A stretch of DNA of 64,000 nt from an uncultured Acidobacteriaceae bacterium (GTDB taxonomy: Bacteria > Acidobacteriota > Terriglobia > Terriglobales > Acidobacteriaceae). Below the pieces are notes generated by a model. It made no database searches and was not told the DNA's origin. It saw only the letters and a list, made by a program, of their open reading frames with translations. A program made the position numbers and the translations under genes. Shown here piece after piece: positions 4,930-29,035 of the stretch. Numbering within the stretch: the stretch's first letter is position 1; each line of letters starts with the position of its first letter. The stretch lies in contig CAVQGL010000004.1 in NCBI GenBank assembly GCA_963712035.1, positions 458 through 64,457 on the forward strand, in the 5' to 3' direction.

Positions 4930-5031
4930 TGAAGAGCGCCTGGCGAGGCGAAATGCAATCAAATGCGCTTGCGCTTTGGGTAATGGTGCCGTTTGGTCTC
5001 CGCGGGTAAGGCGATTGGCACTTGGGTTGCT

Positions 5032-6018
5032 TCAGCGTTTTGAGCCGACGCTAAGACTAATCTTGTTGTCTTTGGGATTGTTAGGATTCTCCATCTCTTC
5101 TTTCGCTTCCAACCCCTCGGCCTGCAATGCGAGTGTCAGATCCTTCGCAGCCTTTAGGGTTGGCTCATCGGCATTCGGATGGACATCTATTTTGAAGCCA
5201 ACGACGCCACCCATCAAGCCTCTCCAGGCAGTCATCGGTAGGAACTTCCATTTCGCCATCTGTAATGCGAGATGGACACGATTGGCGATTCCTACAGATT
5301 CTGGCGAGTCCCAATACGCTGTTACGTCGTATTCTTGGCCTGCATATTCCGCTAGTTTCCCCCTAATCGACTCCAATTGGGCATCGCTAAGAATTCGGTC
5401 GGCTAGTTGTTCTTTCAGTTGTAATTCCTCTTTTTCGGTATCAGCCACTCTCTGCAAGGCGTCTGCAAGGTTGTTCTCAGCCTTTGCTGCTTTCTCTTCG
5501 GCACTCACAGCTTTTTCCTTCGCAGACTTAATATCTTTCTCGAAAGAATCCGCCTCTGTGTGCGCTCCACGAGCGAGATTTAATGCACTAGATGAAGCCG
5601 CCTGTGCGCCCTTGGCTTCGCTCTCAGCTTTCCCGAGCGAATATTCCGCTTTGCCAGCTTTCGTCAGAGCGTCTTTCGACTGCGACAATGCAGTTGAGGA
5701 GTTCGTCACTGCCTTATCCGCGTTGCCGTCCGCTTCCTTTACCTTTGCGTCCAGCGAACCGATTGTTTGCTCTGATAGTGTGTCGTTTCTCTGCCCGTAT
5801 GGATACGCCCCAATCTCAGCAAGCACGGCCACAGCAAAGAAACAGAGGCCGATCTTCTCAAGCAGTGTCTTCCTGCTCTCTCCTTTTGAGAGATGGGCGA
5901 GAACGTCAAAGAGTACAAGCAACGCAAAGAATACGAGCGCGACAGCCTCTAGATCGCTATGGGCGCGTCTGACCGATTCAAGCGAATTCCAATCTGGAAT
6001 CAACATTGCAAAATGCAT
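5032..6018 (-). CDS. Membrane-anchored coiled-coil protein, orphan (start 6018, 6006 or 6156)
   Basis: Two hydrophobic helices (AVALVFFALLVLFDVLAHL, IGLCFFAVAVLAEIGAY). Then about 170 aa of K/E/A-rich heptad sequence, then a C-terminal globular domain (YDVTAYWDSPES...GGVVGFKIDVHP). GC is lower than the flanks. Confidence 0.55.
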   Translation of the reverse strand: MHFAMLIPDWNSLESVRRAHSDLEAVALVFFALLVLFDVLAHLSKGESRKTLLEKIGLCFFAVAVLAEIGAYPYGQRNDTLSEQTIGSLDAKVKEADGNADKAVTNSSTALSQSKDALTKAGKAEYSLGKAESEAKGAQAASSSALNLARGAHTEADSFEKDIKSAKEKAVSAEEKAAKAENNLADALQRVADTEKEELQLKEQLADRILSDAQLESIRGKLAEYAGQEYDVTAYWDSPESVGIANRVHLALQMAKWKFLPMTAWRGLMGGVVGFKIDVHPNADEPTLKAAKDLTLALQAEGLEAKEEMENPNNPKDNKISLSVGSKR

Positions 6019-6174
6019 ACTCTTCACACTTGCGCTTATGGGGACGTTCGCATGCCGTCTTCTTCGCTGTCGGAACAAAATGGGCGAATACAAGAGGATT
6101 CGCGCCGTAATCCTAGCACTCAGGGAAGGCGAACTGTGGATTTCAAACGGCACCATTACCGCACTTTTGTGCGG

Positions 6175-6204
6175 TTGACTTTGGCAAGCCCTCCGTACTA
6201 GTGT
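6175..6204 (+). promoter_or_regulatory. Candidate sigma70-type promoter
   Basis: TTGACT (6175-6180), 18-nt spacer, TAGTGT (6199-6204). It sits about 30 nt upstream of a strong SD and small ORF. Confidence 0.35.
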
Positions 6205-6232
6205 GAAGTTACACCGGAAAGGAGGTGGTCCG

Positions 6233-6301
6233 ATGACAAGTTCTGATAGTCATTGTTGTAGCCGTAGCAGTAAAAGACCAGGTGAGGTGGCTGAGACTTA
6301 G
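6233..6301 (+). CDS. Candidate 22-codon small ORF (MTSSDSHCCSRSSKRPGEVAET)
   Basis: AAGGAGGTG lies 7 nt upstream of the ATG at 6233; stop TAG at 6299-6301. No homology can be judged by eye. Confidence 0.25.
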   Translation: MTSSDSHCCSRSSKRPGEVAET

Positions 6302-6470
6302 GGCGGTTGCTCTGGTTTCGGTGCATACGGCGCGTCCGGTCTTGATGCGCAGGTGCAAATACCATCGCACGACTAACGGTGAGTTGGGATTGATCCACCC
6401 AGCCGGGCATCTCTTGGCTGGGTCCCGAAGGTTGCCGAAGGGGCCACGCAGAGTGACCACCTCTTGGTCA
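6276..6470 (+). ncRNA. Candidate structured RNA domain (unclassified)
   Basis: Closing helix GACCA/TGGTC (6276-6280 with 6465-6469) plus GAGGTGG/CCACCTC (6284-6290 with 6457-6463). Internal hairpin CCCAGCC...GGCTGGG (6398-6404 with 6416-6422). A terminator follows immediately. Confidence 0.3.
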
Positions 6471-6491
6471 ATCTAAGCAGTCCACCGGATG

Positions 6492-6526
6492 GCCCGCGTG
6501 CCTAAGCACGCGGGCTATTCTGTTTT
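6492..6526 (+). terminator. Intrinsic terminator (may also serve the convergent NUDIX gene)
   Basis: GCCCGCGTGC-ctaa-GCACGCGGGC (10-bp stem) followed by TATTCTGTTTT. Confidence 0.65.
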
Positions 6527-6535
6527 CGGAGGAAG

Positions 6536-6967
6536 CTACCTCGCCGCCCTCTCAAACCCTAGGCGGATGACCTCGGCCGTATCCTCGGGCAGGTGAAGCT
6601 GTTTTACTTCTTCTGGAGAGAACCAGCGAACTTCGTCCGCATCCCCAGCCGCGCAAAGATCTCCGGCAACCCGGCGGCACAAAAAATCCACCAGCAGAAA
6701 GTGATAACGGACCTTGCCCTCTTCGTCGCGCAGCAAACGATCATAGATGCCGAGCAATTCTTGAACTTCGACCGTCAATCCTGTTTCTTCGCAAGCTTCT
6801 CTCGCCGTAGCCTCGCGCACGGTCTCCCCAACTTCCATGGCGCCGCCGGGGATGGACCATTCCCCAAGCAGCGGTGGATGGCCTCGCTTTACCAGGGAAA
6901 CCCGGCCGTCCTCGATGACAATTGCGCCAACGCCGATGAGCGGGGTATCGGGATATTCGCGTTTCAT
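6536..6967 (-). CDS. NUDIX hydrolase
   Basis: Nudix box [24 protein letters not shown] (GX5EX7REUXEEXGU) in a 143-aa protein. Confidence 0.9.
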
Positions 6968-28515: not shown

Positions 28516-28883
28516 CGTCCCGGAGGGACGAAACAACTTAGCCCAGCGGTTTCAATGTCGTTGATCCACTTCGACGAACTTCCTCTTAGAAACTGGATTG
28601 CTTTTGCCAATGGAATAACCGGCGGCAATACCAAAAGCACATGCACATGGTCTGCGAACCCGCCGATCTTGATTGCCTCGCAAGCTTGCTTCCTGGCTAT
28701 GCCGGCCATGTAGGCCCAAAGCCTCGGCTGGAGTTCTTCTAAAATCGTCTTGACGCGCTCCTTCGTGCTGAATACGACGTAAACGCGATTGCTGGAGTAT
28801 CAATGGGACATTGTGCCGTCCCTCCGGGACCGCTCTGACTTTTTATCGCTGTCCCAGCGCTAAAAGCGCTGGGCTAAGTTGTT
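28516..28883. mobile_element. Decayed RAYT/IS200-like unit with flanking REP-like hairpin modules
   Basis: Module A: CGTCCCGGAGGGACG (28516-28530) and CGTCCCTCCGGGAC (28817-28830). Module B: AAACAACTTAGCCCAGCG (28531-28548), in inverted orientation to CGCTGGGCTAAGTTGTT (28867-28883). An additional hairpin CCCAGCGCT-aaa-AGCGCTGGG is present. Confidence 0.6.
28549..28811 (-). pseudogene. HUH Y1 transposase (IS200/RAYT type) with in-frame TGA at codon 4 and 3' truncation
   Basis: Reads MSH-stop-YSSNRVYVVFSTKERVKTILEELQPRLWAYMAGIARK...GGFADHVHVLLVLPPVIPLAKAIQFLRGSSSKWIN. The TGA is at 28800-28802. The catalytic-Tyr C-terminal part is missing and replaced by REP-like sequence. Confidence 0.65.
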
Positions 28884-29035
28884 ACGCGCCTCCGGCGCCT
28901 TGGGGCAACGTTTTACGGCTTTTGCCGCCGGGACCGCGAAAGCTACTGCGAAAGTTCGATATCCTAAATGCTAACGATCTAGCACGCGTTTGTATGTGAC
29001 AATGTCACAATCTTCGCCGCATCTGTGAGGTTGCA

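What the first reader, a model, noticed from the sequence alone, without database searches (positions are those of the whole stretch)
6175..6526. Self-contained promoter - strong SD - 22-codon sORF - structured 3' domain - terminator unit, with two GAGGTGG copies competing for one CCACCTC
A 370-bp gap between two minus-strand genes contains a complete plus-strand unit:
- TTGACT-N18-TAGTGT promoter-like sequence.
- AAGGAGGTG followed 7 nt later by an ATG.
- A 22-codon ORF, MTSSDSHCCSRSSKRPGEVAET.
- A region closed by the helix 6276-6290 / 6457-6469, with internal hairpins.
- A 10-bp GC terminator hairpin with a T-rich tail.

The 9-nt GAGGTGGTC that contains the SD (6222-6230) is perfectly complementary to GACCACCTC (6455-6463). 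That same 3' segment also pairs with GAGGTGG at 6284-6290. The two pairings are mutually exclusive, and one of them occludes the ribosome-binding site. This architecture is typical of a regulatory or dual-function RNA. I could not match it to tmRNA, RNase P, SRP, 6S or the common riboswitch cores. Acidobacteria-specific motifs such as Acido-1 and Acido-Lenti-1 are known by name, but I cannot recall their consensus sequences.
Basis: seen in the sequence. Interest (0 to 1): 0.6.

Follow-up and report, generated by a model that had tools for sequence, protein, structure and literature searches.

The report
Ribosome-docking mini-mRNA of soil Acidobacteria
This is a real, self-contained gene for a roughly 315-base RNA, present once per genome in most Terriglobales (soil Acidobacteria); its front end can pair with the whole free tail of 16S ribosomal RNA, it carries a tiny reading frame that stays open in every relative examined, and it ends in a conserved folded domain, so it belongs to the poorly understood "rre-type" small mRNAs, whose function is unknown.

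Summary
The unit is conserved far beyond chance. A covariance model finds one copy in 129 of 151 Terriglobales genomes and in some other Terriglobia families. Rfam has no match, and tmRNA, RNase P, 6S and SRP RNA lie elsewhere in this genome.

The "strong SD" is a 15-19-nt complement of the 16S rRNA 3' tail (17 nt here, counting 3 G.U pairs). In some relatives it runs into a GUG start. That is the hallmark of rreB/rreR small mRNAs, described so far only in Alphaproteobacteria and of unknown function.

The sORF is open and in frame in 180 of 180 members. It has 11 different lengths and is built from rare A/U-ending codons. A second SD-like GAGGUG always sits 9 nt before the stop.

The helix joining the ORF's 3' end to the downstream CCACCUC segment is supported by compensatory changes. 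The competing SD:CCACCUC pairing is possible here and near-isoenergetic, but it is not conserved in all lineages.

Earlier agents of this scan found the same class in other Acidobacteria.

Verdict: a new variant of a known kind, with unknown function.

The parts
6175..6180 (+). -35 box, TTGACT
   Evidence: Read. TTGAC is conserved (69-93% per position) at a fixed distance in 121 relatives.
6199..6204 (+). -10 box, TAGTGT (family consensus TAATnT), 18 nt after the -35 box. The inferred transcription start is about 6210-6212.
   Evidence: T 93%, A 97%, T 89%, T 93%. Not called by the generic scan. The start site is inferred, not measured.
6216..6232 (+). Extended Shine-Dalgarno / anti-16S-tail sequence, GGAAAGGAGGTGGTCCG. 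It gives 17 contiguous pairs (3 of them G.U) with the 16S 3' end GGAUCACCUCCUUUCU.
   Evidence: The 16S 3' end of this genome was read. Complementarity is tabulated for 180 members. Apart from the rDNA itself, this is the only site in the genome that matches AAAGGAGGTG[AG]T.
6233..6301 (+). sORF of 22 codons plus TAG: MTSSD, then a variable Ser/Cys/Gly/Arg-rich core, then RPGEVAET.
   Evidence: The frame is open and in frame in 121 of 121 close members and 180 of 180 overall, with 11 different lengths. Synonymous changes occur in codons 2-5. Codons are rare and A/U-ending.
6276..6290 (+). P1 5' strand: GACCAG (P1a), a GU bulge, then GAGGTGG (the second SD-like element, codons -5 and -4).
   Evidence: Consensus folds. 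Pair counts. SD2 lies exactly 9 nt before the stop in 180 of 180 members.
6297..6316 (+). P2 hairpin, whose 5' arm contains the stop codon (CTTAGGGC, loop GGTT, GCTCTGG).
   Evidence: In divergent members, 7 of its 8 pairs show changes on both sides (helix 6).
6317..6454 (+). Variable middle domain. It includes lineage-specific inserted hairpins, the covarying hairpin 6397-6404/6416-6423, and the conserved CCCGRAG...GGGGCCAC segment.
   Evidence: Alignments. The hairpin covaries (columns 155-160/172-177, helix 9).
6455..6469 (+). Y segment, GACCACCTC plus TTGGTC. It forms the 3' strand of P1, resembles the 16S tail (GAUCACCUC), and is complementary to both GAGGTGG copies.
6470..6489 (+). Conserved linker, predicted single-stranded, between P1 and the terminator (family consensus CAAUCCCAACAGnnCACCGG).
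   Evidence: It is unpaired in the consensus folds.
6487..6526 (+). Intrinsic terminator: a G+C-rich stem (15 pairs counted by the scan) followed by a T-rich tail.
   Evidence: It shows strong covariation in relatives (helix 14, 11 of 11 pairs).

Best explanation
The unit is the Terriglobia representative of the rre type of small mRNA: a stand-alone transcript of about 315 nt that docks on the ribosome.

Shown:
- It has a conserved sigma-70-like promoter and an intrinsic terminator.
- It occurs once per genome.
- Almost immediately after its predicted 5' end comes a sequence that can pair with the entire free 3' tail of 16S rRNA: 15-19 contiguous pairs across the family and 17 in this window.
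- A 13-23-codon reading frame is always kept open.
- The last five codons (GAG GUG NNN NNN NNN) and the stop lie inside two conserved helices, P1 and P2. P1 joins an SD-like GAGGUG to a segment about 170 nt downstream that resembles the anti-SD.

Inferred mechanism:
1. The 30S subunit is captured strongly by the extended SD.
2. The A/U-rich, unstructured sORF is translated.
3. The ribosome must melt P1 and P2 to reach the stop.
4. At the stop, its anti-SD can pair with the internal GAGGUG, 6 nt upstream of the P-site codon.
5. Melting P1 frees the CCACCUC segment. In this lineage that segment can then close the true SD through 9 perfect pairs.

In this model, translation and RNA conformation or stability are coupled, as proposed for rreB. 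The physiological output (the peptide, the RNA, or both) is unknown.
For: - Conservation and copy number.
- It matches no known RNA family, and the housekeeping RNAs lie elsewhere.
- The 16S tail and the extended complementarity. In several lineages the complementarity runs into the G of a GUG start. That arrangement is the one described for rreB/rreR (PMC5711450).
- The ORF is kept in frame in 180 of 180 members, with 11 lengths, and SD2 is always 9 nt from the stop.
- Rare A/U-ending codons; GC 0.40 in the sORF core against 0.60 in the 3' domain.
- Structure and compensatory changes.
- The two states are nearly isoenergetic.
- Genomic context is variable, so no cis target exists.
Against:
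- Complementarity to 16S here includes 3 G.U pairs, and the longest perfect Watson-Crick run is 11 nt. rreB has 17 perfect pairs.
- Here the start is an ATG that begins right after the 17-nt complementary stretch, not a GUG inside it.
- The SD:CCACCUC alternative pairing is not conserved in the g38-type lineage. The feedback step is therefore at best lineage-specific.
- The register of P1 differs between lineages, and the alignment used for the pair counts was fitted to the model.
- The function of the reference family (rre) is itself unknown, so the class assignment explains little physiology.
Confidence: 0.55

Rival explanations
1. It is simply a small-protein gene. The 17-23-aa acidic, Ser/Cys-rich peptide is the only functional product, and the 3' domain only stabilises the mRNA and tunes its translation.
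For: - The frame is kept open in 180 of 180 members, and indels are always multiples of 3.
- Synonymous changes occur in codons 2-5.
- An acidic residue at position 4-5 and frequent Cys recur across lineages.
Against: - The last eight codons are invariant at the nucleotide level, wobble positions included, in more than 110 species.
- Where they do change, they change together with the pairing partner (A-U against G-C). This points to constraint on the RNA rather than on the peptide.
- About 200 nt of conserved, covarying structure is more than an mRNA stabiliser usually needs.
- The core is highly variable, and some members have no Cys.
- No Pfam or NCBIfam family matches the peptide.
Confidence: 0.2
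2. It is a trans-acting, base-pairing dual-function sRNA. The conserved single-stranded linker before the terminator (CAAUCCCAACAG..CACCGG, 6470-6489 here), or the anti-SD-like segment, would be the seed that pairs with target mRNAs.
For: - The architecture (own promoter, conserved unpaired stretch next to a terminator hairpin with a U tail) is typical of Hfq-type sRNAs.
- Genomic context is variable.
- A CCUC-containing segment could pair with the SD sequences of other mRNAs.
Against: - No target was sought successfully.
- The linker is not invariant: this window reads AAUCUAAGCAG where the consensus reads AAUCCCAAACAG. That is unusual for a seed.
- The extended SD and the sORF would remain unexplained.
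Confidence: 0.12
3. One reading: the 3' domain is a ligand- or signal-sensing switch that decides whether CCACCUC pairs with the inner GAGGUGG (SD free, translation on) or with the true SD (translation off).
For: - The two states are within 1 kcal/mol in this RNA.
- Both duplexes are about 8-9 kcal/mol stronger than shuffled controls in the main family.
- There are many conserved unpaired nucleotides in the junctions.
Against: - SD:Y pairing falls to background in the g38-type lineage, while the unit as a whole is retained there (38 of 38 genomes).
- The middle domain is the most variable part, with large lineage-specific insertions and deletions down to a 150-nt minimal version. A ligand pocket would not be expected to vary like this.
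- No riboswitch family matches.
Confidence: 0.08
4. It is a cis-acting leader peptide or attenuator (sensing Ser/Cys/Gly) for a neighbouring gene.
For: The short ORF is rich in Ser, Cys and Gly codons and is followed by alternative helices and a terminator.
Against: - The next gene here is convergent: NUDIX on the minus strand.
- Neighbours differ among 146 loci. NUDIX(-) is present in 49, DUF2007(+) in 34, PQQ dehydrogenase in 28, plus LigD, a flavoprotein and others.
- Some members have no Cys.
Confidence: 0.02

Closest known systems
rreB (Bradyrhizobiaceae) and rreR (Rhodobacterales) small mRNAs with an extended Shine-Dalgarno sequence; Hahn et al., RNA Biol 2016, PMC5711450
   Same: - A stand-alone small transcript with its own promoter and terminator.
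- A ribosome-binding site extended to cover essentially the whole single-stranded 3' tail of 16S rRNA (16-17 nt there, 15-19 nt here).
- In several acidobacterial lineages the complementarity ends in the G of a GUG start, exactly as in rreB/rreR.
- A 13-23-codon sORF conserved within the clade but not between clades.
- Genomic context is not conserved between groups.
- Function unknown.
   Different: - A different phylum, and no sequence relationship was shown.
- It is longer (about 225-400 nt against 165 nt).
- It carries a conserved 3' domain in which the last five codons and the stop are paired, including an internal SD-like:anti-SD-like helix.
- The complementarity always contains one G.U pair or a one-base bulge instead of being perfect.
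- This window uses ATG beginning right after the complementary stretch.
- 30S binding was shown for rreB and is untested here.
Ms_IGR-5 (Rfam RF02471), an actinobacterial sRNA of unknown function. This lead comes from earlier agents of this scan.
   Same: Earlier notes say it belongs to the same class of RNAs with an anti-16S front end. I could not check that claim.
   Different: The Rfam model does not match this locus, even at E up to 10. Its best hit in the whole genome (19.8 bits, E 0.05, cut-off 45) lies in an unrelated stretch on another contig, without any SD-like motif.
Dual-function sRNAs (SgrS/SgrT, RNAIII/hld, SR1/SR1P, Spot 42/SpfP, AzuCR, VcdRP; reviews PMC12612679 and PMC12310071, seen only as search-result titles and abstracts)
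   Same: One small transcript combines a translated sORF with a conserved structured RNA part.
   Different: No base-pairing target is known here. In those RNAs the coding and pairing parts are usually separable, whereas here the ORF's end is built into the core helices. None of them has a 16S-tail-length SD.
SD-like element before the recoding site of prfB (RF2 frameshift). Recalled from general knowledge, not tested.
   Same: An internal SD-like sequence is placed at a fixed short distance upstream of a stop codon, where it could pair with the anti-SD of the ribosome decoding that stop.
   Different: The spacing is 6 nt to the P-site codon (initiation-like), not 3 nt. There is no slippery sequence and no downstream frame. 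The stop is not restricted to one release factor (TAG 171, TAA 5, TGA 4).

Membership tests
rre-type small mRNAs (rreB/rreR, PMC5711450) | Independent small transcript with its own promoter and terminator | tested here: inconclusive
   The promoter boxes and the terminator are conserved at fixed positions, and the context is variable.
rre-type small mRNAs (rreB/rreR, PMC5711450) | At least 16 nt of complementarity to the 16S rRNA 3' end, spanning the canonical SD | tested here: met
   There are 17 contiguous pairs in this window if 3 G.U pairs are counted, and 15-19 across 180 members. Caveat: the perfect Watson-Crick run is only 11 nt here, against 17 in rreB.
rre-type small mRNAs (rreB/rreR, PMC5711450) | The complementarity region ends in the first base of a GTG start codon | tested here: not met
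   This window has ATG at 6233, beginning right after the last pairing base at 6232. The feature is met in 15 divergent relatives that read GGTCCAGTG.
rre-type small mRNAs (rreB/rreR, PMC5711450) | A very short sORF (14-18 codons) conserved within the clade | tested here: met
   22 codons here and 13-23 in the family, open in 180 of 180 members.
rre-type small mRNAs (rreB/rreR, PMC5711450) | Predominant association with 30S subunits / the ribosome fraction | not testable with these tools
   This needs sucrose-gradient or P100 fractionation.
Ms_IGR-5 (Rfam RF02471) | Match to the family covariance model at or above its gathering score (45 bits) | tested here: not met
   No match at this locus at E up to 10. 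The best genome-wide hit is 19.8 bits, elsewhere.
tmRNA / RNase P RNA / 6S RNA / SRP RNA | Match to the Rfam model or ARAGORN, and absence of another copy in the genome | tested here: not met
   There is no match at this locus. All four are found elsewhere above their cut-offs.
Leader-peptide transcription attenuators | A regulated gene or operon directly downstream on the same strand, conserved among relatives | tested here: not met
   The downstream gene is a convergent NUDIX gene, and neighbours vary among 146 loci.
Type I toxin-antitoxin mRNAs (hok-like fold-back inhibition) | A small hydrophobic membrane peptide, an antisense RNA partner, often several copies | tested here: not met
   The peptide is hydrophilic and acidic. 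There is a single copy per genome. The minus strand has weaker fold support. An antisense transcript was not tested.
Dual-function base-pairing sRNAs | Demonstrated pairing with trans-encoded mRNA targets | not testable with these tools
   A conserved unpaired linker exists at 6470-6489, but no target analysis was completed.

The most novel reading that the evidence does not exclude
The RNA is a ribosome-operated switch and a new class of ribosome-associated regulator, nearly universal in Terriglobales. In this reading:
1. The extended SD captures a 30S subunit by its whole anti-SD tail.
2. The translating ribosome melts an internal mimic of the SD:anti-SD helix.
3. The ribosome is held at the stop by the second SD-like element.
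4. It releases a 16S-tail mimic that then shuts the true SD.

The RNA would thereby count or time single rounds of translation, or report the availability or state of free 30S subunits. Slow decoding of the rare Ser/Cys codons would add a second input.
Probability: 0.15. Interest if true: 0.8.

Novelty: new variant of a known kind. Interest (0 to 1): 0.55.

Why it matters
Small mRNAs whose ribosome-binding site covers the whole 16S tail have been published only for Alphaproteobacteria, and nobody knows what they do.

This work finds an unrelated, larger version that is present once per genome in about 85% of sampled Terriglobales, a dominant soil lineage. Its reading frame is kept open in 180 of 180 members, and it adds an internal SD:anti-SD-like helix. 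That argues the design is a recurrent and useful solution rather than a curiosity.

It also gives concrete, testable parts: the extended SD, the inner GAGGUG 9 nt before the stop, and the CCACCUC segment. It adds one more conserved RNA family that current genome annotation and Rfam do not capture.

Tried and rejected
- **Rfam.** Searched at gathering threshold over the whole window and at E up to 10 on 6000-6700. Only chance hits to the terminator appeared.
- **ARAGORN.** No tRNA or tmRNA.
- **A missing housekeeping RNA.** Rejected: tmRNA, RNase P, 6S and SRP RNA are all elsewhere in the genome.
- **Pfam and NCBIfam for the peptide.** Nothing found.
- **The look-up of sequencing runs.** Closed, so there is no expression evidence.
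- **RF1-specific stop sensing.** Considered because TAG is invariant in the close family. Rejected because TAA and TGA occur in divergent members.
- **RiPP precursor or PqqA-like peptide.** Considered because a PQQ-dependent dehydrogenase lies upstream in 28 loci. Rejected because no neighbour is conserved and the peptide lacks the Glu/Tyr motif.
- **Ms_IGR-5 membership** (a lead from earlier notes). The CM test failed, and the papers that mention it say nothing about its ribosome-binding site.
- **Complementarity between the conserved linker and rRNA.** The scan timed out and was dropped.
- **Pairing of the 5' CACCGG or 3' CACCGG with the central CCGGUG.** Inspected by eye in the alignments; no compensatory changes were seen.

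Full report
**1.

The plus strand between a minus-strand NUDIX gene (6536-6967, Pfam E 1e-20) and an unassigned minus-strand ORF (5032-6156, no Pfam match) contains these elements, all read:
- TTGACT 6175-6180, an 18-nt spacer, and TAGTGT 6199-6204.
- AAAGGAGGTGGTC 6218-6230.
- ATG 6233 and a 22-codon frame ending at TAG 6299-6301.
- A second GAGGTGG at 6284-6290.
- GACCACCTC at 6455-6463.

It also has a terminator at 6487-6520 with a T tail. The plus strand folds 3.5 SD better than shuffles, and the minus strand only 2.0 SD better. The generic promoter scan did not call the -10 box. However, TTGAC-N18-TAATnT is conserved at a fixed distance from the RNA body in 121 relatives.

**2. It is not a known RNA.**

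- Rfam gives no match at gathering thresholds, and none up to E = 10 apart from chance hits on the terminator.
- ARAGORN finds nothing.
- tmRNA, RNase P RNA, 6S RNA and SRP RNA are all present elsewhere in the genome above their cut-offs.
- Pfam and NCBIfam have no family for the peptide.

**3. Conservation.**

- The unit is single-copy in its own genome.
- blastn finds it in all 9 genomes of the genus and in 26 of 36 of the family, but in no other family of the phylum at that sensitivity.
- An exact 24-nt pattern from the ORF's end occurs in at least 119 species-level genomes. All are Terriglobia MAGs: Acidobacteriaceae, Ca. Sulfotelmatobacter, Terriglobales, and one Acidiferrales. One further hit is a 1.9-kb contig labelled Rubrimentiphilum, which is probably mis-binned.
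- A covariance model built from 25 short members finds one hit per genome in 129 of 151 genomes of the order, and in 125 of 141 high-quality ones. This includes 38 of 38 genomes of one large genus that blastn had missed.
- In the class, the model also hits three further families clearly (10/14, 4/4, 2/7) and a fourth only weakly (3/19, E of 4e-5 or worse), and it hits none in five others.
- Neighbouring genes are not conserved. Among 146 loci, NUDIX(-) is downstream in 49, a DUF2007 gene (+) in 34 and a PQQ dehydrogenase upstream in 28, and LigD, a flavoprotein and DUF983 also occur.

It therefore behaves as an autonomous gene, not as a leader.

**4.

The 16S rRNA of this genome ends in GGAUCACCUCCUUUCU. 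The RNA's GGAAAGGAGGUGGUCCG (6216-6232) can form 17 contiguous pairs with it, 3 of them G.U. No other site in the 5.9-Mb genome apart from the rDNA matches AAAGGAGGTG[AG]T.

Across 180 family members the contiguous complementarity is 15-19 nt. In one large lineage it is 10 + 9 nt around a single bulged base, read GGAGG-A-TGATCCAGC. The 16S end is unchanged in those lineages. In 15 divergent members the complementarity runs into the G of a GUG start, read GGTCCAGTG.

This arrangement was described for rreB and rreR. Those are small mRNAs of Alphaproteobacteria that bind 30S subunits, are weakly translated, and have no known function (PMC5711450). I found no later paper on them and no description of an acidobacterial counterpart in the library.

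**5. The sORF.**

- In 121 of 121 distinct close relatives the frame is open. The variable core between MTSS[D/E] and RPGEVAET always changes length by multiples of three.
- Over all 180 sequences an in-frame ATG, GTG or TTG lies 5-14 nt after GGAGG. The frame has 11 different lengths (13-23 codons). The stop is TAG in 171, TAA in 5 and TGA in 4.
- Codons 2-5 show synonymous changes: ACA/ACC/ACG, TCT/TCC/TCA and GAT/GAC.
- The core is built from codons that are rare in this genome. AGT is 11% of Ser codons, TGT 28% of Cys, ACA 10% of Thr and AGA 5% of Arg. Third positions are 72-87% A or U, against 34% in long ORFs. GC is 0.40 in the core against 0.60 in the 3' domain.
- By contrast, the last eight codons are invariant at every position in more than 110 species.

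I infer that the frame is translated. I also infer that the ORF's 3' end is constrained mainly as RNA.

**6. Structure.**

Consensus folding gives three elements:
- **P1:** 6276-6281 with 6464-6469, plus 6284-6290 with 6457-6463.
- **P2:** 6297-6316, with the stop codon in its 5' arm.
- **A variable middle domain** with a covarying hairpin, followed by a conserved unpaired linker (6470-6489) and the terminator.

On 57 divergent members aligned to the model, 89% of cells are paired. The covariation score is 0.304, against at most 0.069 when the partners are slid. Changes on both sides occur in P1a, P2, the inner hairpins and the terminator. That alignment was fitted to the model, which favours the structure.

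Independent examples read directly from the sequences are:
- P1a GACCAG/UUGGUC becoming GACCUAG/CUAGGUC and GGCUU/AGGCC.
- Extension of P1b by C-G and U-A pairs where the 3' strand reads AGCCGCC.

In several divergent lineages the 3' strand GCCUCAGGYC pairs better with GRCUGAGGC, a register shifted by about 6 nt. The variable pair there is A-U in 12 members, G-C in 11 and U-C in 3, and it is never A-C or G-U. These are probably few evolutionary events.

The inner GAGGUR lies exactly 9 nt before the stop in 180 of 180 members. That is 6 nt before the last sense codon, which is an initiation-like spacing.

**7.

In this RNA, folds forced to contain SD2:Y or SD1:Y differ by 0.8 kcal/mol (-134.0 against -133.2; unconstrained MFE -137.0). 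In the close family both duplexes are about 8-9 kcal/mol stronger than shuffled controls (-21.1 and -19.9 against -12).

In the divergent set, SD1:Y averages -14.6 against -11.7 for shuffles. It is at background in the lineage with the bulged SD, although all 38 genomes of that lineage keep the unit.

SD1 is fixed by its complementarity to 16S, and Y resembles the 16S tail. Their mutual complementarity may therefore be a by-product. The competition is possible here but is not a demonstrated or universal feature.

**8. Most likely mechanism (inferred).**

1. The 30S subunit is captured through the extended SD.
2. The unstructured, rare-codon sORF is translated.
3. P1 and P2 are obligatorily melted by the ribosome.
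4. The anti-SD possibly pairs with the inner GAGGUG while the stop is in the A site.
5. In this lineage, the released CCACCUC segment closes the true SD.

This links translation to the RNA's conformation and probably its stability, as suggested for rreB, where removing the start codon stabilised the transcript. Whether the output is the peptide, the RNA or both cannot be decided here. The rival explanations, with weights, are given separately.

**9. Relation to earlier notes of this scan.**

After I had reached the rre comparison through the literature, the notes showed that other agents had found the same class in other Acidobacteria genomes (e1-746523, e1-3020696, e1-5279071). Another first-reader note describes a look-alike unit (e1-2569012). 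They name rre and Rfam Ms_IGR-5 as closest relatives. I tested the Ms_IGR-5 lead, and the model does not match this locus.

**10. Limits.**

- The genomes searched are samples of their groups.
- Close relatives are not independent observations.
- E-values from the shortened calibration are rough.

Noticed in passing
window 28853-28899 (+): Rfam Acido-Lenti-1 RNA (RF01687), 41.4 bits against a cut-off of 37. It is the only Rfam match in the window at gathering threshold.
   Followed up: no
window 5032-6156 (-) and 4976-6178 (+): Two long overlapping ORFs lie on opposite strands just upstream of the unit, and neither has a Pfam match. Which one, if either, is a gene was not resolved.
   Followed up: no
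G520:C1:248602-248884 (-) next to 250256-250557 (+); G532:C1:858576-858865 (-) next to 859443-859754 (+): In two genomes of genus g12 a second, much weaker match to the model (E about 1e-13) lies within about 0.6-1.4 kb of the main copy on the opposite strand. This may be a diverged duplicate.
   Followed up: no
L036 (DASYYA010000133.1, 1877-nt contig): A contig binned as Candidatus Rubrimentiphilum carries the element. Its peptide is almost the same as that of an Acidiferrales MAG (L133). This is probably a binning error rather than presence in another phylum.
   Followed up: partly
L227 (G611:C84:3320-3770): This is a minimal version of about 150 nt: extended SD, GUG start, a 14-codon sORF, one hairpin that includes the stop, the linker and the terminator. 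It has no CCRCCUC partner segment, so the 3' domain can be almost entirely lost.
   Followed up: no
whole family, position pairing with the U of the 16S GAUCA: Perfect complementarity to the 16S tail seems to be avoided in every member tabulated. It is broken either by a G.U pair (GGTGGTCC) or by a mismatch or one-base bulge just after GGAGG (GGAGG-A-TGATCC). The reason is unknown.
   Followed up: no
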